Shown: one piece after another, positions 31,104 to 64,000 of the stretch
Layout: the number at the start of each line of letters is the position of its first letter
Numbering within the stretch: position 1 is the first letter of the stretch
Origin: the human T2T-CHM13v2.0 reference genome, Homo sapiens
DNA length: 64,000 bases
NCBI RefSeq assembly: GCF_009914755.1
Contig: NC_060932.1
Reading direction: 5' to 3' (one strand)
Notes under the pieces: model-generated
Told to the model about the DNA's origin: nothing
Seen by the model: the letters and a program-made list of their open reading frames with translations, nothing else
Databases searched by the model: none
Program-made: the position numbers and the translations under genes

Positions 31104-32591
<1,488 letters not shown>

Positions 32592-33417
32592 TTACCTGGC
32601 CTAAATATTCTAGGCGCCAGGCCCAGAGGTGGGACGCGCCTCGGGGTCACGAGGCTTTTGGGGAGGCAGATCGGGGCTTTGGGTCGCGGGTCAGGGCAGC
32701 TTTGCCAACCTTCACTCGTGGGCTCCCGCTGGACCTTCGCTGTCCGTCTGGGTGCGCCTAACATTAGTAATGTTGCTGCTCGGCGGGCACGGTCTCTATG
32801 GAGACAGAACTTACTCGTCCTCTCCCACCCCCACCCCGTTACTCTGGCGATGGCCGACTCCTTCATTCCGCACAACTCTCTCATCTTGAGTCGCCCGTGA
32901 CTGCTTGTGAATGTGCCCCCAGAGATAGGGCCTGAGCTGACAAAACTGGGCTTCAGACGGACTCCGGACGTGCTTCTGAATCTCACAGACCCCAGAAGCG
33001 CCCTTCGCCTTCGGTTCAGCAACGGGCCTTCTCCCGGGTTGTCCCCCACTTGAAGAGGAGCTTCACCACGTTCCCCCCCGTTTCCCGAGTGAAATCTCTG
33101 TGTTGTCAGGAGGGAGCGCTTCCCTGGAGCATTCGCCTCTTCAGGGACCCTTGCTTTCCCTGAGCATTTCGTGATTCCTTCGGTGAGGCCCCCGTGGGAA
33201 TTGGGGTTCCTGAAGTATGGAGTCCACTGGGCGCCTAGAGAGCGTTTCTCTCTGAAGGTCCTAAGCGCGCGCGTGCGGCACCCGCTCAGCTCATCCGCGG
33301 CTCTGCAGCTGGGTAGCTTCCCTTCCCCGTGTGCCCGGATGGCTGGAGGACATAGGGATCCAAAAAGGGCTGGCTTTTTCTCCTTTTCTGTTGACTTTGT
33401 GGACACAACATCATTAT

Positions 33418-33985
33418 TGAAACCATTCCTATAGACTTTATTAATCAGGGAAGAAGGGAGGCGAGAAAGGAAAACAAACCCAGCTTGCAGCTCGCTCAGC
33501 ATTCATTGTGAGGTCAGCCTGCCTCCCAACTCCTTCCTCAGAGCTGTTTGGTGCCTGTGGCCCCAGAATCACACAGACCCTGTCACAAGATGAGAGGTCC
33601 CCATAACTGCTCTATAGGTAACAACTTAAACATAGTAAAATGTGAGGTTTTCTATTTGACAGGTCCTGCACACCCATGAAGCGACTGACCCAGCTGGTCT
33701 GAAGCACCCCACGAGGAGGTAATGTGCCAAAGAATGCAGGGTACACATCCTGAGGACTTCATCCCCTTTCCCCGGCCAATTGATGACCCCATTTTACAGT
33801 CCGTCACCCGCCACAATCCCTTTAAAAACCCCAGCCCAGAACTCAGGGAGATGGATTTGAAGGTCCCTCCCATCTCCTTGCTCGGTGTCCGGGGATCATG
33901 ACACTTTCTCTGCTGCAAACTCTGCTGTCTTGATGTATTGGTCATTACTGCACAGCAGGCATCACCACCTGTTGGTCCTGTAAGA
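33418..33985 (+). mobile_element. ERV1 LTR (LTR26-like)
   Basis: TGAAACCATTCCTATAGACTTTATTAATCAGGGAAGAAGGGAGG start, LTR-like TTTAAAAACCCCAGCCCAGAACTC box. Confidence 0.6.
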
Positions 33986-54574: not shown

Positions 54575-55021
54575 CTGCTGGGCGGAACGGATCATCCTGC
54601 GGGCCTCATCCTTGATACTGGGGCTGTCGGGGGGCGGTGGCTGCACCAAGGTGGTCACCTCGGTGCCCTGGAAGCCGAAGGTCAGAGGCCAGCCCAAATC
54701 AAGCTCAGGCACGGCCTGGTCTGAGTTCACTGGCCAGTATGTACCCGAGGAGCCATCCATGTCCACGTCGAGAAGGCTGCCTTCAGGTGGCTCTCGGGTA
54801 ACATACTGCGGAGGCCGAAGGTGTCGGCTCACATGTTCCAGCTCTTCAGGGCACAGGAAGTCTGGTGCCCCCTCGGTAGCGAGGAAGCGGCTGTAGGCCT
54901 CCGAGCCACCCTCGGCCAGTGCATCCACCGCCAGGCGGTAGTACTCTTTGTAGTGAGGCGGCAGGTACCCGGGTGCCAGTGGGTTGTCCCCCTGCGAGGA
55001 GCTCTGAGAGCGACGGGCCAT
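54575..55021 (-). CDS. FAM83H: FAM83H coding exon 1 (exon starts at acceptor 55036)
   Basis: MARRSQSSSQGDNPLAPGYLPPHYKEYYRLAVDAL..SGTYWP..IRSAQQ, donor CAG/GTGCGC. Confidence 0.95.
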
Positions 55022-55289
55022 GTTGGGGCCAGGGGCCTGGAGGGGCAGGGAGACACATGACTAGGGGTGGGGGCACTGGGACCACTCCTACCCTCGAGCA
55101 TGGACACACTGTGGAAAGGGCCGTCAGTGACTTGGGTAGGCTGGAGTTTAGCCCATGCCCAGGAGGCCTTCCAGGGCACCAGCCGAACCAGGCTCACAGA
55201 GAGCAACCCAGACCCTAGGATGCCCCTAGCTGAGGGGACACTGGCAGAGGGCTGGGGCACAGGTATCCCAGCCCTGTCTCTCCTTTCTC

Positions 55290-55587
<298 letters not shown>

Positions 55588-57449
55588 TTAAAGACAAACA
55601 ATCCAGGCTGCATTCATCATTATAATATTCACTTTTTTCTTATTTTAAGACATTCACGGACCCCTGGCACTGTGCCTACTGGACAAGCTGGTGCCGCCCA
55701 TGCTGCCCATGTGTCCGTCTCTGACTGCCTGGGAGACTGTGGGTAGGTCACTGCACCTCTCTGGCCTACCTCTACTGCACAACACAGCTGAGGGTCCACA
55801 TGACACCACGCCTAGCCCAAGGTGAGCGCAGCAAACAGGGCTGTGACTACCCTCCTCCTGGAATGGCAACCTTAAGCCCCACACATAGTCCCGGGCCACA
55901 CCTCCTCCCCATCCTCAGGGTTTCACAATTGGGCTCCCACAGCCCATTCTATGACCGCCCAGTCCTGGAACACTGATCCCTAGACTCCGTCCCTGTCTCC
56001 CAGCACCCCCTCCTTCCCTTGGCCTACCTTTGACCTCTTTCTTGTCACTGTCCCTCTCAGATAAAACCTCCCTGGGCCACAGCCCCTTGGTGCCCACAGG
56101 GCCCTGCAGGGCCTGCACTCCACATCGCCCAAATCTGGCTCTCCACTTGCTCAGAGTCCTGTCCCCACCAGCCCCCATCCAGGGCAGCAGGGACCTTTCC
56201 AGGTCCTGGGCTCGCCACCACCATCCATGCTTGGCTGCCCCACAGCCCACTCTGTTCTCCAAAGGGTCCCTGCGGGGGCCTGGCCTCTCCAGAAAGGTGT
56301 CAGATGGGGAGCGCCCAGGGCCCACGCACACAGGGTCACTGAGCTACCTGGGTACCTCTCCCTGGAAGGAGAGCCCTAGGGACTGCTCAGTCCATCCCAC
56401 TGCTCCTCGGGTTGGGGAGGGAGGCAGGACACCTGTCCCCGCCTAGCACACAGGTTCCTGAATGTTGGCCCTGGCTAGGAAGGTGCCCAGAGGAGCGTGC
56501 CCCTGGGCACTGACAGGATGGATGCCGGCCAGCTGGACTACATGGGTGCTAGCCGGAGCCACTTGGCTGAGAATGTTGGGGTCAGGAGGCAGCCGTCCTG
56601 CCTGGTGCCCCTGGGGGTGACATGGAGTTGAGACATGGGAAATACCTGGTGCCACTCAACAGCCCTAGATGCCAACCGGCTTGGGAGAAGCTGTCCCAAC
56701 ATTTCTTTGTTGGGGCACCGTCCTCATGGTTGACATATGGGGCTGGTTAGGGCACACCGCTCTGGTTGTGCCAGGGGCAGATCGAGGCCAACCACATGGG
56801 GGTGAGGTGTAGGCCTGTCTGGCTGGGCCGAGGAGCCCACTCACCATTGCCAGCCTGTCTGTAGGGGCGGTGTCTGACCATACAGGGCAGGGGGAACAAC
56901 CCTGCTGATGTTGTTTGAGGGTACTTCCCGACACTGGGGGGACACTCTAGAAAGGACCCCCACTGTCCCTTTGGATTTCAGTGTCCAGGCTCCAGGCTGT
57001 GTGTAATGGGGGCAGGGACCATCCAGACGGTGGAAGCCCCCGTGGCCAGGAGCCCTCCCAGCAGACATGCCTCGTCCTCACAGGGTGATGCCCAGACCTC
57101 CAACTGCTTCATTCCTCACGTCGTCTCCTTTCATGGGTACGTGTCTCCTGGGCTATGGACGGGGCTGCAGCCACTCCCGAGCCCAAGATGGAGCACCCCA
57201 GTGGCCTGCATGCCCACACATTTGCCTACCAAACGTCTGCCCAAGGGAGGGAGGGCGCGGAACCCACCCATGGGCAATGACTCAGCACGAATCCACTCTT
57301 CTGCTTGCTGACCCCTGACCTCTGACTCGAAGTCAGGGCCCTCAGCTGGCCTTCAAGGACCCCATCCTCTCCACCCTGGCAGGAAGTGGGGTTCCTGAGT
57401 ATCTGGAAGGAGGACCCCATGGAAGGATCTGGAGTTCCTACACAAAGTG

Positions 57450-58760
57450 GGGTGAACCTGTGCCAAGTTCCGATGGGCGCAGGAGGGCGCGGAGGCTCTA
57501 GGCGGCGGAAAGGTGGGGTGCGGAGGACGGGGCTCACAGACCGGAAGTCGCTCAGTGATAACTTGCGGAGTGGGCACCCCAGCCCCCAACGGGGTCAGTG
57601 CACCCTACGAGCTCGCGGCTGCGGCCGCTGGGTGCCCTATCCGCCCACCCCAGCCCAGGAACGTGGGCGCGAGGGGCAGCACTCCCATCACTCGCCCTGC
57701 TCGCCACGCGGGGATCCAGGCCGCACCCTGGCCACCCCAGTCCACGGCGGCCCGGGCGGATGTCCCCAGGGAAGGGTCCAGGCCGTGCCCAGCACCCAGA
57801 CTCCAGCTAGGCCGCGAGGGCGGGAGCGAGTCGGGACGGCCGGGCAGGCTCGACCCGGATCCCGGGCCCCTTCCCCCTCGGCTCTTTTCGGGCCGGCGTC
57901 GTGCGGGGGCGCTCGCGTCCATATCCGCACAGCGGCGCCCCCTGTCCGAGCAGCCCCGCCACCCCGGCCCCGCGCACGCGGCCGCGCTCCACTCCCACCG
58001 CCCCTCTCTGGGTCGCGCGGCCCCGGCCCAGGTGTGGGCGCAAGGGTAGCCCAAGTGGGACCGCGCCAAGGGGCGCCCGCCCCCCGCCTCGCCCCGCCCC
58101 GCTCGGGCCGGGGGAGGGGGGCCCTACCTGGCCAGGTGCGCGGGGTCTCGGCACAGGGGCAGCAGGAGCCGACCGCCGCCCAGCGGCCTCGCGGTCCGGT
58201 CGGTCCGGCAGCCACTCCCTGCCGCGGCCCGCCCGGCCTGATTCACGCGCCCGCCCCCGCCCCGCCCGTCGCTCCTGCCTCCTGCCTGCCCGGGCAGCAC
58301 CTGGGGGCGGGGCAGCCCCACCCGCGGCGCGCCCGCATTCCTGCGCCCCGCGCCCGCCGCCAGCCCCAGCCCGCGCCCCCGGCCCGCGCCCCGACCCGCC
58401 CGTGCCCTGCGGCCGCGCGCCCGGAGACCCCGGCCCAGCGCCGCCGGAGACCGTGAGGCCCGCACTTCAAAGACCCCGACCCCCGGGAGCCCAACTGTTG
58501 ACCCAAGGCTCAAAGTTCCCAGCCTGACCCCTGACCCTCGCCCCGGAAGTCGGGGTGACTCGGAAGTTCCGGCTCAGTCGCTAGGAAACGAGCGAGCCCG
58601 ACGCCAGGGGCGGAGCTCTGGCCTCCTCGCCGAGTTGGGGGAGGCAGGTGCGACAGGTGAGGACGGTGGGGCGGCGTCGAGCCCCGGGCGGGGCCGGGTC
58701 TGGGAGCCCCGAGAGCACAGGGGATCCCCTCACCACACACCGGTCTCCCACCGCACCAGC
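57450..58760. promoter_or_regulatory. Bidirectional CpG-island promoter of FAM83H (non-coding exon ending at donor 58128, -) and IQANK1/FAM83H-AS1 (+)
   Basis: Very CpG-rich, GC boxes; minus-strand donor CAG/GTAGGG at 58128/58127; plus-strand donor CAG/GTGAGG at 58656/58657. Confidence 0.8.
57520..57590 (-). ncRNA. MIR4664: MIR4664 precursor hairpin (FAM83H intron 1)
   Basis: Minus strand GTTGGGGGCTGGGGTGCCCACTCCGCAAGTTATCACTGAGCGACTTCCGGTCTGTGAGCCCCGTCCTCCGC folds into a stem-loop and matches the recalled pre-miR-4664. Confidence 0.8.
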
Positions 58761-59801
58761 GCCCCACACGTAGACGAGGACCCCGCCCACACAGAGGACC
58801 CCCAGACCCCAACCCCCACCACACACACTGATGCCCACAAGTACCTGGGGTCCCCCATCTTTCTCCCTCACCCCCTCACACCGATGCCCACACTTGTAGG
58901 GGACTCTGCCGCAGTGACCCCCCCATGCACATGCGGACCCCGAATGACCTGTGCCTCATGTACACCAACCCCCAAGCACAGGAGACTCCTCAGGAAGACA
59001 GAAGCCACAAGCACACCGAGTCCTGCCCATGCCAGTCACCCACGAACACGCTGACATCCGCACACCTAGGGAACCCCACCTGCATATGAGATTTCTCAGA
59101 CACCAACCCCACACACAAACAGGGGATGCCATATTCACACTGACTCTGAGAGCACAGGGGACCTCCCTCACATACGGAACCCTGTGTACACACAGGGACT
59201 CTGCAAAAACCAAGCCCCAACGGACAAGGGACCCAGTGTGCACACCAAGCCTCATACCAGACGCCCCCCCATGTACACAGCAACCCCCACACACCACCCC
59301 GAGCTGCCCCTGGGTGCTCCAGTCCCCCAGGTCCCCCTCAGGCCCTCACTTAGGGCCCCTCCCCCTCTTAGGCCCTGCCCTACACTGGATCATCTGTCCA
59401 AACCACCACCCCTCGCCCCTGCCACTCCCACCCCAAGGACTGGCCCTGCCTCAACCCTTTCTGATGGTCATCAGTCGCCTTTCTCTTTGTTCCTCTTGCC
59501 ATGTGATCCTATTTTCTGTTTTCAGGGTCAGTCCCAGTTTCATTTGTTCTTTCCCCAAACACTCAGTGCCACCCCACTGGTACCAGCATGCTGGAAACAT
59601 GGGTGGGGGGTCAGACCAGTGCCCAGGCAACTGTGCTGCAGCGGGTGAGGGGCATGGGGCACCGGGGAGGACCCGGACAGGCTGGGGCAGGCAGGAGGAG
59701 CCTCCCAGGGAAATGAACTTGGGGGTCAGCTGTGTGGACTAGGGAGAGGGGTATTGCTCCAGGGCCTGACACCACCATCTGCCAGAGCCGGGACCACATA
59801 A

Positions 59802-60389
<588 letters not shown>

Positions 60390-60578
60390 TGACCTCCAGA
60401 GCACTGTCACCCAGACACTGACCTGTGAGACCTTCTATGTAGCCACCGAGAGACACCCCCTCTGAGGAGAGCCCTTCTTCCAAGAGTGGCTTTTAGGGGA
60501 CCTCTGAGTTGGGATTAGGTGTGATTGACTGAGGGTTCAGAGCCCATTCATTCATCTCAGACCTTGAGCCTGAATCTA

Positions 60579-60885
<307 letters not shown>

Positions 60886-62083
60886 TGAATCTTATACCCC
60901 TGGGGTTGGGGTGGGGGCCTAGGGGTAGCACTCAGAGAAGCCCAGCTTTGGAACACATGGAGGTGGGAAGGGGGCAGGAGCCAGTGGGAGGCGCCTAGAT
61001 GGCCAAAAATGGGTTTTGAAACAGGAGGGTTTGAGTCCAAGTTGGGGATTCTCAGTCTAAGCATGTGTTCTCTGACTCTCTGCTCCATCTGGGCCATCCT
61101 GTGCTGCCCTCTGCCTGCGGCTTTGCTCCCAGTCACCTTCTCCATAGTCACTTCCAGGTTGGATGGTGACAGCTCACCTGGGCTGGGTTTTCCTGTGGGT
61201 CAGGAAGGAGACTTCCCCCAGTACCCTCCCCCACCCCAGCCCCGCCTTCACTGTTGTCACTCCCTTGCTCCAGCTCCCATTTATTCTCTATGCTGGCTGT
61301 GAACACATTCCAGGTTGCAAATCTGGGGTCCTTCAGCACCCAGGCCTGCACTGGGGTCTGTGCTTGCTAAGAGAGCACCCCATCCTGCTCCCCAGACTGC
61401 CCCTCTGCTTAGAGTGGGCCTGGCCTAACACCCCTGGTTGCCAGAGAGCTCCCAGATTCACAGGAGCAGGTGGGATGATGGTGACCGCTCCTCCACGCCA
61501 GGCTGGGGTTAGATCCTAGTTCCCCAAAATAGCCCCAGCTGCGTCTGAGGCCAGCCGCCCTCCTGGAATGAGGATAATGGGCACAGGTGCCGCATGCTGC
61601 TTCCGCAATCTCTAGCCCTGAGTACACTGCACTCCAATAAACGGGGGGCAGGGCAGGTGGACCAGCAAGGCAGCCAGGAAACTGGGTTGCAGGGGTGGGG
61701 GCTGTGCTCTTCAGTTCTGCTACCTACTGACTGCACACCCAGGCCTTCGCCCTGCACCGCAGCCCATACACTGCCCTGGACGGCTCTGGCCCAGCATGCC
61801 TGGGTCTGCTGCAGGGACACCTCTGTCCCTGAACAAGTATCTGCCCTCAGTGCCCATTTCCACCAAGCATTGGGCCAGCCTGGGCAGGCTTGCTGTCCCT
61901 TGGTCTTGCAGTGCCCTGTGTGGCGGGCACCGGCTTCACTTGGCAGATGTGAAGATGGGCCCACAGATACCCTGCATCCAGCCTGGCTTCCTGGGCCTCC
62001 ACAGGCATCCCTAGGTTGCTGCAGTGGCCACCGCACCAACACAACAGTCCGGGACCCCTCCCGCCACCCCATCCAGGCCTTAC

Positions 62084-62671
62084 CTGGCCTTGGGTCTGCA
62101 GTGCTTCGAAGCCCTCACTCCGGAGCTGCTCCAGGGCCACGGCCAGCTGCAGCCCCTCCACGTGTACCCAGGCCTGCTCCTCCTGTAGCTGCTGCAGCCA
62201 CAGCTGCTCCTCCTGTAGCTGCTGCAGCCATAGCTGCTCCTCCCGCCACAGCTGCATCTGCAGCTGGACCTGCCGCCACCGGTCCTCCAGCAGCAGCTGC
62301 TCCTGGGCCAGGCACAGCTGGACCTCATGGAGCCTCAGCAGTTCGGGGCCCAGGGCCGGCATGGGGTCCCCTGCTCCACAGCCTTCCATGTGCCCAGCAA
62401 GGACCAGCACCAGCTCAGACCCCGGAGCAGTGGCCGGCACCGGTCTCGAGGCTGCCTGTGGCTGCTCTGGCCTGGCCACCCTGGGGTGTCCCTGAGGTGC
62501 TGGCTCGATGCTGGTCACGTGCCCTGTAGGGGCCACCCCCGCTTCACCCTGAGGGCCCCCTGGGGTGGGGGGCGGGGGCTCGACCTCAGGGCCCTGCTGC
62601 CCAGCTGCCGGCTGGGCCCTGCCTGCCCTCCTGGCCCGGGGTTTGCGAACTCGACTTCGTTTCCCAGACAT
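62084..62671 (-). CDS. FAM83H: Candidate alternative first coding exon of FAM83H (196 aa, basic/Pro-rich N-terminus + Q/L/E coiled coil)
   Basis: GCCATG start, open frame to strong donor CAG/GTAAGG (phase 0), in frame with acceptor 55036 (APGPN-MARRS); TATAAA on - strand at 62922-62927. Confidence 0.65.
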
Positions 62672-64000
62672 GGCCCTGGATCCAGCGCCTCCTTCACCAG
62701 GTGTCTGCTCCCCAGGGGCCCTGGCTCATGGACCAGCCGGCCTCAGGCCAGCTCAGAGGGCGTCCCTGGAGGCTACAGTGGCCGTGTGCTCCCACGCCAG
62801 GCTTGGCCCCCTGTTCCAGGTCCTGCCCCTTGCTGGAGCCCGCAGCACCGCAGCTCGGGACTCTGGCTCTGCCTATGGGCCTCACTGACCCCACTCGGTG
62901 GGGCCAGGCCACGCCAGGGAGTTTATAGGGACTCCACGGCGCGGTGGCTCGCCTGGGCTGAGAGGCTGACTAACGCGCTGACACGGCGGCACGGGGCTTT
63001 ACAGGCCACGGGCCCTGCCGGCGAGACTGGGAGGGAGGCTGAGAAGCTGGAGGAGGCAGCGCAGCAGCCAGAGTGCCTGCTGTGCGCAGCAACGGGCGTG
63101 CCTGGTCCTGCCCTGGGCGGCACCAATGCCCCCCGCCCCCGCCCCATCCCGGCTCCCCCGGTCCCACAGCTGGTCGAGGGAAACTCAAACTGCAGGCCAC
63201 AGGGCCAGGAGCTGCATCCTGGTCGCACTGACCCTCAGGGCCCAGACCCTCCCTGGCCACAGACAACCTGAGCCCAGCTGGCCATGGGAACCCGCAGCCC
63301 ATGCACTCTGGAGGGCTCCAGGGCAGCTAGCACGCCCACAGGAGCCCCGCTGGGGTTTGGTGGAGACAAAGGACCCAGGGACCCGGTGGGAGCTAGGGCA
63401 GGGTTCGGGCCACTGCACTGCGGCTGGCTGGAGAGACTGGGCCCTCAAAGCCCTGCGTGGCACTTTGTGAACTGATGTGGGGCCCCGAGGAAAGTCCTGG
63501 CGGTCATGGAGGTGGGGCGGGGGCTCTTGGTGCCATCCTGGCTGGGGGCTGGCTGTCCTGCACTGCACTGCAACAAGGGCCTGACTGGATCAGAGCTGCC
63601 TTTGGGTCTCCGGGCTGGAGGTGGGGGTGCAGGGCTAGCCCCAAATGCCGGCGTCCTCTGGGCTTCTTGTTGGGAGGGTGGGCTCCAGGTGGCCTCCTCC
63701 CTAGTGTTTCCCCAGCCCGGGGCTGCTGACTCACGCCCACGCCCAGGGCCCCATCCCAGCCGGCTCAGCCACACTGGCCGGACTGGTTTGCCTGGCGCAA
63801 CCCTGCCTGAAGCAGTGCTCCTGCTCCTGTTCAGTCCTAGTCCCAGAAGCTCAGGAGCAGAGGGACAGCCACCTGCCAGGGGAGTGCCGAATTGGACACA
63901 CAGAGACCGGAAAGGGCCTGGGGGAGGGACGTGGCACAAGGTGGGGGACAGTGTCAGGGGTGGGGCAGGGCCAGCAGGCGGCACTGCCAGCCCACAGGGT

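What the first reader, a model, noticed from the sequence alone, without database searches (positions are those of the whole stretch)
62084..62930. Upstream TATA-driven exon predicting a ~1380-aa long FAM83H isoform with a coiled-coil N-terminal extension, nested inside IQANK1
Seen: minus-strand TATAAA (62922-62927), GCCATG at 62671, 196 open codons (MSGKRSRVRKPRARR.., then LLRLHEVQLCLAQEQLLLEDRWRQVQLQMQLWREEQLWLQQLQEEQ..) ending at a near-consensus donor CAG/GTAAGG in phase 0. The FAM83H exon-2 acceptor (55036) lies exactly 15 nt before the usual ATG (GCC CCT GGC CCC AAC ATG), so this splice would read through in frame: 196+5+1179 = 1380 aa. Known: FAM83H binds CK1 via its N-terminal DUF1669 and associates with keratins. 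Inference: a tissue-specific TATA promoter could make an isoform with an NLS-like basic start and an oligomerising coiled coil in front of the CK1-binding domain. The exon sits in an intron of the opposite-strand IQANK1, so the two transcription units interleave. It may already exist as a minor annotated transcript, but I know of no functional characterisation.
Basis: partly seen in the sequence, partly recalled or inferred. Interest (0 to 1): 0.85.

Follow-up and report, generated by a model that had tools for sequence, protein, structure and literature searches.

The report
Conserved upstream coding exon of FAM83H
This is a real alternative first coding exon of FAM83H, conserved across mammals, that adds about 200 residues to the front of the protein; gene models in many other mammals already include it, but no study of its function was found.

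Summary
On the minus strand these are TATAAA at 62927-62922, ATG at 62671, 196 open codons, the donor CAG|GTAAGG after 62084, and the FAM83H exon-2 acceptor at 55036, 15 nt before the usual ATG. The join is in frame: 196+5+1179 = 1380 aa.

The human sequence alone does not show that the frame is coding. 33% of composition-matched random 2-kb sequences hold an ORF this long, and the codon-usage signal is weak.

Cross-species evidence decides it. 24 of 24 long database hits are FAM83H proteins of 979-1408 aa, from siamang, rodents, bats, ungulates, pangolin, dugong and wallaby. All carry this extension joined exactly as predicted (...QTQGQ|APGPN|MARRSQSS). In 36 read-through ORFs, conservation stops at the donor.

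AlphaFold2 gives a disordered residue range 1-107, which includes a conserved basic start, and one confident helix at 108-194. That helix shows no clean heptad register, so a canonical coiled coil is not shown. Self-association could not be tested.

The extension has no relatives outside this exon and was found only in therian mammals.

It is already annotated as "FAM83H isoform X1" in many mammals, and a paper cites an Ensembl transcript FAM83H-203 that overlaps IQANK1. Human RefSeq lacks it. Promoter use and human expression remain untested. Six literature searches found no functional study.

The parts
62084..62671 (-). Coding part of the alternative first exon of FAM83H: 196 codons from the ATG at 62671 to the last exon base at 62084.
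   Evidence: Translation. 97% identical to the N-terminus of siamang FAM83H isoform X1 and 62-82% identical to 20 further FAM83H long forms. Single copy in the human genome.
62612..62671 (-). Residues 1-20, a basic cluster (MSGKRSRVRKPRARRAGRAQ, net charge +9), NLS-like.
   Evidence: charge. Conserved at 75-100% in the 12 models that reach the start and visible in the alignments. Nuclear import itself is an inference.
62351..62611 (-). Residues 21-107, a Pro/Ala/Gly-rich linker predicted to be disordered, with short conserved islands (GHVTS, RPEQPQ, GSELVLVP, MEGCG).
   Evidence: AlphaFold2 pLDDT mostly below 50. 55-71% identity in non-primate placentals. P68 and E69 are invariant in alignment A1.
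62084..62350 (-). Residues 108-196, a Leu/Gln/Glu/Trp-rich segment predicted as one long helix (108-194).
   Evidence: AlphaFold2 pLDDT 94-98 over residues 111-180. The same helix (108-198) is the most confident element in the meerkat long form. 79-96% identity in non-primate placentals and 72% in wallaby.
62174..62256 (-). 30-nt tandem repeat that encodes the EEQLWLQQLQ units inside the helix. The copy number varies between species.
   Evidence: period 30, 2.3-2.8 copies; the segment between EDRRRQ and EQAWV is 14-42 aa long in 22 of 25 sequences.
62082..62083 (-). GT of the splice donor (CAG|GTAAGG), phase 0.
   Evidence: Conservation of read-through ORFs collapses here.
62672..62899 (-). 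Inferred 5' UTR, from a CA dinucleotide 28 nt downstream of the TATA box to the ATG. The TSS position is an inference.
   Evidence: Read from the sequence. At least 57 nt upstream of the ATG is included in the Mastomys, Hipposideros and Kogia models.
62694..62729 (-). Upstream ATG with an 11-codon uORF. It is out of frame with the main ORF in human.
   Evidence: The same upstream ATG is in frame in the Mastomys, Hipposideros and Kogia models and adds 19 residues there.
62922..62927 (-). TATAAA, candidate core promoter element.
   Evidence: the only TATAAA between 40460 and 64000. Function not tested.
63115..63144 (-). Three GC boxes and an inverted CCAAT (63127-63123), about 190-220 nt upstream of the TATA box. 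The local CpG observed/expected ratio peaks at 0.72 (62900-63099).
   Evidence: PMC12757458 reports a 207-bp CpG island 4,700-4,900 bp upstream of the canonical TSS, which corresponds to about 62916-63116 here.
55037..62083 (-). First intron of the long transcript (7,047 nt). It contains the canonical FAM83H exon 1 and its CpG island, MIR4664, and IQANK1 exons 1-2 on the opposite strand.
   Evidence: Hub gene table.
55022..55036 (-). First 15 nt of FAM83H exon 2. They are 5' UTR in the canonical mRNA and are read as APGPN in the long isoform.
   Evidence: A 5-residue linker (A/V/T-P-G/A-P/A/G/H-N/D/E/K) is present in 23 of 24 long models; wallaby has 6 residues.
54575..55021 (-). Coding part of FAM83H exon 2, starting at the canonical ATG, which becomes Met202 of the long isoform.
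   Evidence: Hub table.

Best explanation
Positions 62084-62671 on the minus strand are the coding part of a conserved alternative first exon of FAM83H.

How it works (splice and translation): a transcript that starts upstream of 62729 is spliced from the donor after 62084 to the ordinary exon-2 acceptor at 55036. It probably starts about 28-31 nt downstream of the TATAAA at 62927-62922, but that is inferred. The splice skips the canonical promoter and exon 1, MIR4664, and the first two exons of the opposite-strand IQANK1. Translation from ATG 62671 then yields a 1380-residue FAM83H: 196 new residues, then five residues (APGPN) read from what is 5' UTR in the canonical mRNA, then the full 1179-residue protein.

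Anatomy of the extension:
- a conserved basic cluster at residues 1-20
- a disordered Pro/Ala/Gly-rich linker of about 85 residues
- a Leu/Gln/Glu/Trp-rich helix of about 87 residues, whose length changes between species in steps of 10-11 residues

Shown here: the sequence features, the in-frame join, conservation of frame, junction and helix across placentals and a marsupial, and the loss of conservation exactly at the donor.

Inferred: the promoter and the TSS. It is also inferred that the helix binds a partner or self-associates, and that the basic cluster favours nuclear or nucleolar localisation. Together these would place the CK1-anchoring SACK1/DUF1669 domain somewhere other than the keratin-bound canonical form.
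For: 1; a search for longer proteins with the 196-aa exon gave 24 hits at E<=0.001 (5.6e-113 to 2.3e-13). All 24 carry PF07894 (SACK1). [quoted passage not shown] Lengths are 979-1408 aa.
2; in all 24, the extension ends ...QTQGQ (or a close variant), followed by a 5-6-residue linker and MARRSQSS. This is exactly the predicted exon-to-exon-2 join.
3. (15 of the 24 models): the helix segment is 79-96% identical to human in non-primate placentals and 72% in wallaby. That is as well kept as FAM83H beyond the SACK1 domain (81-86%; 69% in wallaby).
4; 40 short proteins or ORFs cover the exon alone. Many come from six-frame ORF calls on unnamed contigs and so do not depend on any gene model. All are alignable up to the donor.
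5; in 36 of 43 short sequences that extend at least 15 residues past the donor, identity to human is 82% (1172/1427) in the last 40 residues before the donor. After it, identity is 44% (319/723), far fewer positions can be aligned, and stops come at varying distances.
6; the donor is the best in 1.1 kb (8 of 9).
7; the helix is predicted with pLDDT 94-98 on its own and 83-95 inside a 979-aa long form.
8. PMC12757458 (passages read) states that an Ensembl transcript FAM83H-203 overlaps IQANK1, which the canonical transcript (ending at 58216) does not. It also reports a small CpG island 4.7-4.9 kb upstream of the canonical TSS.
9. The hub table lists a RefSeq 'enhancer' feature at 62202-63067.
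Against: - No transcript, CAGE, ribosome-profiling or peptide data could be consulted, so use of the exon in human is not shown.
- Human RefSeq (hub table) has one FAM83H transcript, without this exon. Among primates, only one long model (siamang, a one-member cluster) turned up.
- Many of the long models may be computational projections from one another or from a reference annotation. They prove an intact frame in those genomes, not transcription.
- No orthologous DNA could be fetched, so dN/dS or PhyloCSF-type tests were not done.
- Human-only signals are weak: ORF length is not significant and codon usage is only marginal.
- Three singleton short ORFs (P0064, P0066, P0067; bovid-like) switch in and out of the conserved frame. 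A 32-member near-identical cluster (P0036) is intact, so sequencing error is the likelier cause, but real decay in some lineage is not excluded.
- The helix shows no continuous hydrophobic seam.
Confidence: 0.8

Rival explanations
1. The exon is a genuine conserved FAM83H coding exon in mammals generally, but in human it is silent or used so rarely (one cell type or one developmental stage) that the long isoform has no appreciable role.
For: Human RefSeq has no such transcript (hub table). Only one primate long model was found. None of six literature searches found any mention of a long isoform. The promoter region is only weakly CpG-rich and has a TATA box, a type usually restricted in expression (established knowledge).
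Against: The human frame is fully intact and 97% identical to siamang, with start, donor and acceptor phase preserved. An Ensembl human transcript overlapping IQANK1 is reported. RefSeq marks the region as a functional element (hub table).
Confidence: 0.25
2. The stretch is a non-coding regulatory element (an enhancer, an alternative promoter or its RNA). In this reading, its open frame is a by-product of GC-rich CAG/CTG-type sequence, and the long-isoform models are annotation artefacts propagated between species.
For: The RefSeq 'enhancer' feature 62202-63067 covers it (hub table). ORFs of this length are common here by chance. Antisense ORFs of 311 and 314 aa overlap it. The codon-usage score is marginal. 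Part of the frame is a 30-nt tandem repeat.
Against: The frame is open from Met1 to the donor in many species despite several indels, all in frame. The moderately diverged linker (55-71% identity) keeps the frame too. Alignability ends exactly at the donor. Six-frame ORFs from unnamed contigs, which do not depend on gene models, show the same. The upstream 5' UTR is conserved in sequence but not in frame, the contrast expected between UTR and CDS.
Confidence: 0.08
3. The ORF belongs to an independent small gene: an unspliced 274-aa product in human, or the exon spliced to some other downstream exon. Some annotations model it this way (hyena and tiger 'KMT2D-like'; whales and fox 'uncharacterized').
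For:: stand-alone models of 217-239 aa exist in NCBI annotations of at least seven species. The human frame stays open for 78 codons past the donor.
Against: The tails after the donor are unrelated between species and end at varying distances. The human read-through tail has a negative codon score of -0.42. The conserved phase-0 donor matches the phase of the conserved 15-nt linker in front of the FAM83H ATG.
Confidence: 0.05

Closest known systems
Predicted 'protein FAM83H isoform X1' and equivalent long FAM83H models in other mammals (for example siamang P0001, 1369 aa; Mastomys P0003, 1408 aa; Pteropus P0004; wallaby P0023)
   Same: They have the same N-terminal extension (97% identity to human in siamang, 62-82% in 20 others), the same junction to MARRSQSS, and the same three-part layout of basic start, linker and helix.
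   Different: Those are models for other species. Human RefSeq has no counterpart (hub table). The copy number of the 10-11-residue repeat differs. Human and siamang have Trp where the others have Arg in EDR(W/R)RQ.
Canonical human FAM83H (NM_198488.5, 1179 aa), a scaffold that anchors CK1 through its SACK1/DUF1669 domain to keratin filaments
   Same: The long form contains all 1179 residues unchanged. SACK1 (PF07894) follows directly after the extension, at 215-484 in the siamang long form.
   Different: The long form uses a different promoter and first exon about 4.7 kb upstream, reads 15 nt of the canonical 5' UTR as protein, and adds 201 residues with no Pfam family.
Ensembl transcript FAM83H-203
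   Same: PMC12757458 says it overlaps IQANK1. That requires a start upstream of the canonical exon 1, as proposed here.
   Different: I could not see its exon coordinates or its protein; the supplementary figure is an image. Identity with this exon is therefore an inference.
Leu/Gln-rich helical regions of proteins such as KMT2D (the name NCBI's pipeline gave the stand-alone hyena and tiger models)
   Same: Similar composition: in residues 108-196, 21 of 89 are Leu and 21 of 89 are Gln.
   Different: No detectable homology. There was no Pfam hit and no PDB sequence hit at E<=0.5. The only fold match was vimentin at E=8.6. No hit outside this exon appeared among 1.84 billion cluster representatives.

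Membership tests
FAM83H long isoform (isoform X1 type): alternative 5' coding exon | Sequence orthology of the exon to the N-terminal extension of annotated FAM83H long forms | tested here: met
   24 of 24 long hits are FAM83H-family proteins (PF07894), with E from 5.6e-113 to 2.3e-13.
FAM83H long isoform (isoform X1 type): alternative 5' coding exon | Same strand and upstream of FAM83H exon 2, with donor phase and acceptor phase giving one open frame into the canonical ATG | tested here: met
   phase-0 donor after 62084, acceptor at 55036, and 15 nt before the ATG.
FAM83H long isoform (isoform X1 type): alternative 5' coding exon | The same exon junction in orthologues | tested here: met
   24 of 24 models read ...Q(T/A)(Q/P)(G/D)(Q/P) + 5-6 residues + MARRSQSS.
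FAM83H long isoform (isoform X1 type): alternative 5' coding exon | Human transcripts that contain the 62084->55036 junction | not testable with these tools
   No RNA data were available. The only indirect support is the FAM83H-203 remark in PMC12757458.
Protein-coding exon under purifying selection | Frame kept across species, with in-frame indels only and conservation ending at the splice site | tested here: met
   Exception: three singleton ORFs with frame switches.
Protein-coding exon under purifying selection | Excess of synonymous change (dN/dS below 1, PhyloCSF positive) | not testable with these tools
   No orthologous DNA was obtainable.
Canonical (heptad) coiled coil | A long uninterrupted alpha-helix | tested here: met
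   helix 108-194 (108-198 in meerkat), pLDDT up to 98.
Canonical (heptad) coiled coil | A continuous a/d hydrophobic register (3.5-residue periodicity) | tested here: not met
   the best register has 12 of 25 a/d positions hydrophobic against 11 of 25 for two other registers; the whole-helix hydrophobic moment does not exceed shuffles at 3.5, 3.6, 3.67, 3.33 or 3.75 residues per turn (fraction of shuffles reaching the observed value: 0.30-0.87).
Canonical (heptad) coiled coil | Self-association | not tested
   The complex prediction never ran (see Tried and rejected).
Classical monopartite nuclear localisation signal | A K-(K/R)-X-(K/R) basic motif (consensus recalled from general knowledge) | tested here: met
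   KRSR and RKPR occur within residues 4-13, and the cluster is conserved. Import activity cannot be tested here.
TATA-box core promoter | TATAAA with a transcription start about 25-35 nt downstream | tested here: inconclusive
   The motif is present and locally unique, and a CA dinucleotide lies 28 nt downstream. No TSS data were available.
SACK1/DUF1669 (PF07894) | A match of the extension itself to the family profile | tested here: not met
   the 196 residues match 0 Pfam families at E<=1. The domain lies downstream, in the canonical part.

The most novel reading that the evidence does not exclude
The extension is a module specific to therian mammals, born from a GC-rich CAG/CTG-type repeat. 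It makes a functionally distinct FAM83H: the conserved basic start sends it to the nucleus or nucleolus. The long Leu/Gln/Trp helix, whose length is kept in helical phase by 10-11-residue steps, multimerises it or docks it on a partner. In some tissue, CK1 would then be anchored away from keratin filaments, from a promoter regulated independently of the canonical CpG-island promoter shared with IQANK1.
Probability: 0.25. Interest if true: 0.6.

Novelty: already known. Interest (0 to 1): 0.35.

Why it matters
All FAM83H studies seen here use the 1179-residue protein: amelogenesis imperfecta genetics, CK1 anchoring, keratin organisation and cancer over-expression (PMC12757458, PMC11986100 and PMC9276658; passages and abstract openings only).

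A conserved 201-residue N-terminal extension would have several consequences:
- Variants in 62084-62671, now scored as IQANK1-intronic or upstream, could be coding changes in FAM83H.
- Residue numbering and start-codon assumptions would differ for that isoform.
- Knock-outs or knock-ins built around the exon-2 ATG would behave differently for transcripts that read through it.
- A second, TATA-type promoter interleaved with IQANK1 (formerly FAM83H-AS1) would need to be considered when expression of either gene is interpreted.

It is not a new kind of biology. Alternative first exons that give N-terminal proteoforms are common, and this one is already modelled in public annotation.

Tried and rejected
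- **Self-association of the helix.** It was never accepted because the queue was full, and the last attempt gave no usable answer. There is no verdict, so oligomerisation remains untested.
- **Orthologous DNA for dN/dS.** Scans of genome contigs and viral contigs with A1 found no locus. No mammalian genome other than the window's own is held.
- **Paralogues.** The exon is single copy in the human assembly: 1 match at E<=0.01 among 60 scored candidates.
- **Distant relatives.** A profile search of 1.84 billion cluster representatives gave 12 hits, all of them this same exon. The ESM Atlas gave no usable hit. A PDB sequence search gave one chance-level hit, ribosomal protein S16 at E=0.58. Foldseek against the PDB gave only vimentin at E=8.6. 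Pfam gave none. Rfam gave none in 61000-64000.
- **Depth of origin.** A search with the wallaby N-terminus found only therian FAM83H (13 hits). Absence outside Theria is not proven.
- **Bacterial-type promoter scan**. Irrelevant to a human locus; nothing was used from it.
- **Full-length fold of a 979-aa long form**. The overall model is poor (mean pLDDT 41.7). It was used only to see that the helix persists.
- **Literature.**
  - Searches for FAM83H with an Ensembl transcript id I recalled (0 papers), 'FAM83H-203' (1 paper), 'alternative promoter' (10 papers), 'longer isoform', 'transcript variant' (31 papers, 15 listed) and 'N-terminal extension' (1 paper, by its title on METTL3 and non-coding RNAs in colorectal cancer, not opened) found no description of the long isoform.
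  - For one search, in the two FAM83H-titled papers the phrase occurs only in reference lists.
  - A six-term search was badly designed and listed no FAM83H paper.
  - PMC12903956 and PMC6058387 (passages) were not relevant.
  - Supplementary figure S2 of PMC12757458 is an image; only its legend could be read.
Full report
**1. The observation**

On the minus strand the window reads TATAAA at 62927-62922 and an ATG at 62671 in the context GCCATGT. From there, 196 codons stay open to 62084, followed by GTAAGG.

- An in-frame TGA lies 19 codons upstream of the ATG. Whatever the TSS, this ATG is therefore the first usable in-frame start, unless another exon splices in between.
- The FAM83H exon-2 acceptor (...CCTCCAG|GCC) puts the first exon base at 55036. 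Fifteen bases (Ala-Pro-Gly-Pro-Asn) precede the canonical ATG at 55021.
- A script that joined the two stretches by coordinate read straight through.
- A 30-nt tandem repeat at 62174-62256 encodes the EEQLWLQQLQ units.
- By the hub gene table, the exon lies between IQANK1 exon 2 (60287-60375) and the next IQANK1 exon beyond 64000.

**2. Is it more than chance?**

From the human sequence alone the case is weak.

- The region is about 70% G+C.
- 32.8% of 500 Markov simulations of the 2-kb stretch hold an ATG-ORF of at least 196 codons.
- The window has 18 such ORFs, most of them outside annotated coding sequence.
- Two antisense ORFs of 311 and 314 aa overlap the exon.
- A codon-usage log-odds score, trained on the four annotated genes of the window, ranks the proposed frame first of six. 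The value is only 0.076 bits per codon (helix part 0.25). Known genes score 0.11-0.65 and nine chance ORFs range from -0.56 to +0.25.

Some features do stand out locally.

- The donor matches 8 of 9 consensus positions. The next best GT in 1.1 kb matches 6 of 9, and 20 annotated plus-strand donors average 7.35.
- The TATAAA is the only one on either strand in the last 23.5 kb of the window.

**3. Cross-species evidence**

*Long forms.* Searching the 196 residues against longer proteins returned 24 hits at E<=0.001.

- All 24 carry the SACK1 domain PF07894.
[quoted passage not shown] The pig hit is named 'Scaffolding anchor of CK1 domain-containing protein' and the sheep-hybrid hit 'hypothetical protein'.
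- They come from siamang (97% identity), donkey, Mastomys, Phodopus, gundi, guinea pig, seven bats, camel, pig, sheep, meerkat, puma, pangolin, hedgehog, rhinoceros, dugong, an elephant shrew and a wallaby.
- In every one, the extension ends ...QTQGQ or a close variant, followed by a 5-6-residue linker and MARRSQSS. The predicted splice is therefore the modelled splice throughout.

*Degree of conservation.* Segment-wise identity to human was computed on 15 of the 24 models. The nine left out (P0005, P0007, P0008, P0013, P0017, P0019, P0021, P0022, P0024) were mostly partial or truncated.

| Segment | Identity to human |
|---|---|
| Basic start (residues 1-20) | 75-100%, where the model reaches it |
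| Linker (residues 21-107) | 55-71% in non-primate placentals |
| Helix (residues 108-196) | 79-96% in non-primate placentals, 72% in wallaby |
| SACK1 region (canonical residues 1-290) | 93-96% in non-primate placentals, 90% in wallaby |
| Rest of FAM83H | 81-86% in non-primate placentals, 69% in wallaby |

The helix is thus held about as tightly as the body of the protein.

*Short forms.* A second search at similar lengths found 40 short proteins.

- One is the 274-codon human read-through ORF.
- Many are six-frame ORFs from unnamed contigs.
- A few are stand-alone gene models (hyena and tiger 'KMT2D-like'; whales, fox and a bat 'uncharacterized').
- All align up to the donor and then diverge.
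- In 36 of 43 short sequences with at least 15 residues past the donor, identity to human is 82% in the 40 residues before the donor (1172/1427). After it, identity is 44% over far fewer alignable positions (319/723), and stops fall at differing distances.
- The first residues after the donor (Val-Arg-Pro-Gly) simply spell the donor consensus.

*The 5' UTR as a control.* Upstream of the ATG the sequence is conserved but the frame is not. The upstream ATG at 62729 opens an out-of-frame 11-codon uORF in human. In the Mastomys, Hipposideros and Kogia models it is in frame and adds 19 residues. That is the behaviour expected of a 5' UTR next to a CDS.

*Evidence the other way.*

- Three singleton bovid-like ORFs (P0064, P0066, P0067) switch in and out of the frame. 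A near-identical 32-member cluster (P0036) is intact, so I read these as sequencing errors, but I cannot prove it.
- Many long models may be projections between annotations, so they show an intact frame rather than transcription.
- No orthologous DNA could be fetched, so no synonymous/non-synonymous test was possible.

**4. Anatomy of the extension**

- No Pfam family matches it.
- AlphaFold2 on a 24-sequence alignment gives low confidence for residues 1-107 and one continuous helix at 108-194, with pLDDT 94-98 over residues 111-180.
- In an otherwise poor model of the 979-aa meerkat long form (mean pLDDT 41.7), the same helix is the most confident element.
- The first 20 residues carry net charge +9 and contain KRSR and RKPR, which fit the loose classical NLS pattern (pattern recalled from general knowledge).
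- Of the helix's 89 residues, 21 are Leu, 21 Gln, 14 Glu and 5 Trp.

The helix is not a textbook coiled coil.

- No heptad register stands out: 12 of 25 a/d positions are hydrophobic in the best register, against 11 of 25 in two others.
- The whole-helix hydrophobic moment does not exceed shuffles at any of five periodicities.
- Hydrophobic residues lie all round the helix. That fits a bundle, a partner-bound helix or condensate-type Leu/Gln interactions better than a two-stranded zipper (inference).
- The repeat part varies from 14 to 42 residues in 22 of 25 sequences, in steps of 10-11 residues, about three helical turns. Such steps would keep the two conserved flanks in the same rotational phase (inference).

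Self-association could not be tested because the complex prediction never ran.

**5. Relatives and age**

- The exon is single copy in the human genome.
- A profile search of 1.84 billion cluster representatives found only this exon (12 hits).
- The Atlas, PDB sequence and Foldseek searches gave nothing significant.
- A search seeded with the wallaby N-terminus found only therian FAM83H.
- The extension therefore looks like a therian invention with no detectable ancestry. Absence in other vertebrates is not proven, because representatives of their clusters may lack the exon.

**6. Promoter**

- Besides the TATA box there are three GC boxes (63144-63115) and an inverted CCAAT (63127-63123).
- The local CpG observed/expected ratio peaks at 0.72 over 62900-63099.
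- PMC12757458 (passages read) reports a 207-bp CpG island 4,700-4,900 bp upstream of the canonical TSS, which maps to about 62916-63116.
- RefSeq marks 62202-63067 as an enhancer (hub table).
- A CA dinucleotide lies 28 nt downstream of the TATA box.

None of this shows where transcription starts. The promoter assignment is an inference at roughly even odds.

**7. What is known**

- PMC12757458 states that IQANK1 overlaps 'the FAM83H-203 transcript' in Ensembl. The canonical transcript ends at 58216, short of IQANK1 (58576), so FAM83H-203 must start further upstream. I could not see its exons.
- Six searches of the paper library found no description or functional study of a long FAM83H isoform.
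- The two FAM83H cell-biology papers I opened work with residues 1-1179 (PMC11986100 and PMC9276658; abstract openings, passages).
- Those papers report that C-terminally truncated FAM83H and CK1 move to nuclear speckles. This makes a nuclear-targeting N-terminus a reasonable thing to test, but it is not evidence for it.

**8. Verdict**

The feature is already present in public annotation of many mammals and apparently in Ensembl for human, so it is not new. What is missing is any functional work. Interest is moderate to low: 0.35.

Noticed in passing
window 31104-32519 (minus), CCDC166: The whole gene span is one uninterrupted 471-codon ATG-ORF. The annotated 96-nt intron 31980-32075 is therefore in frame and stop-free. 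Its donor reads AAG|GCCAGT, that is GC rather than GT. Retention of this intron would simply add 32 residues.
   Followed up: no
window 62694-62729 (minus): There is a conserved upstream ATG in the 5' UTR of the long transcript. In human it opens an 11-codon uORF out of frame with the main ORF. In the Mastomys, Hipposideros and Kogia models it is in frame and adds 19 residues. It may regulate translation.
   Followed up: partly
window 62174-62256 (minus) and orthologues P0001-P0024: The copy number of the 10-11-residue EEQLW repeat differs widely between mammals: the segment is 14 aa in pangolin, 20 in pig, sheep and dugong, 30 in human and 41-42 in Glossophaga and meerkat. The 30-nt unit appears prone to expansion and contraction.
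   Followed up: partly
window 62275-62277 (minus), residue 132: Human and siamang have Trp in EDR(W)RQ. Every other species aligned, including wallaby, has Arg or Gln at that position. This looks like an ape-lineage substitution in the most conserved part of the helix.
   Followed up: no
proteins P0064, P0066, P0067 (unnamed contigs): Three singleton bovid-like ORFs alternate between the conserved frame and other frames of the same sequence. The cause is probably indel errors in low-coverage contigs. Real decay in some ruminant cannot be excluded.
   Followed up: partly
window 55037-62083 (minus): The first intron of the long transcript contains the canonical FAM83H exon 1 with its ~80% G+C CpG island (57500-58750), MIR4664, and IQANK1 exons 1-2. 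Transcription from the upstream promoter would therefore run through the shared bidirectional promoter.
   Followed up: no
window 32579-33502 (minus) and 57419-58456 (plus): These are further long ATG-ORFs (307 and 345 codons) outside annotated coding sequence. Their codon scores are -0.09 and +0.25. They are probably chance ORFs in GC-rich DNA.
   Followed up: no
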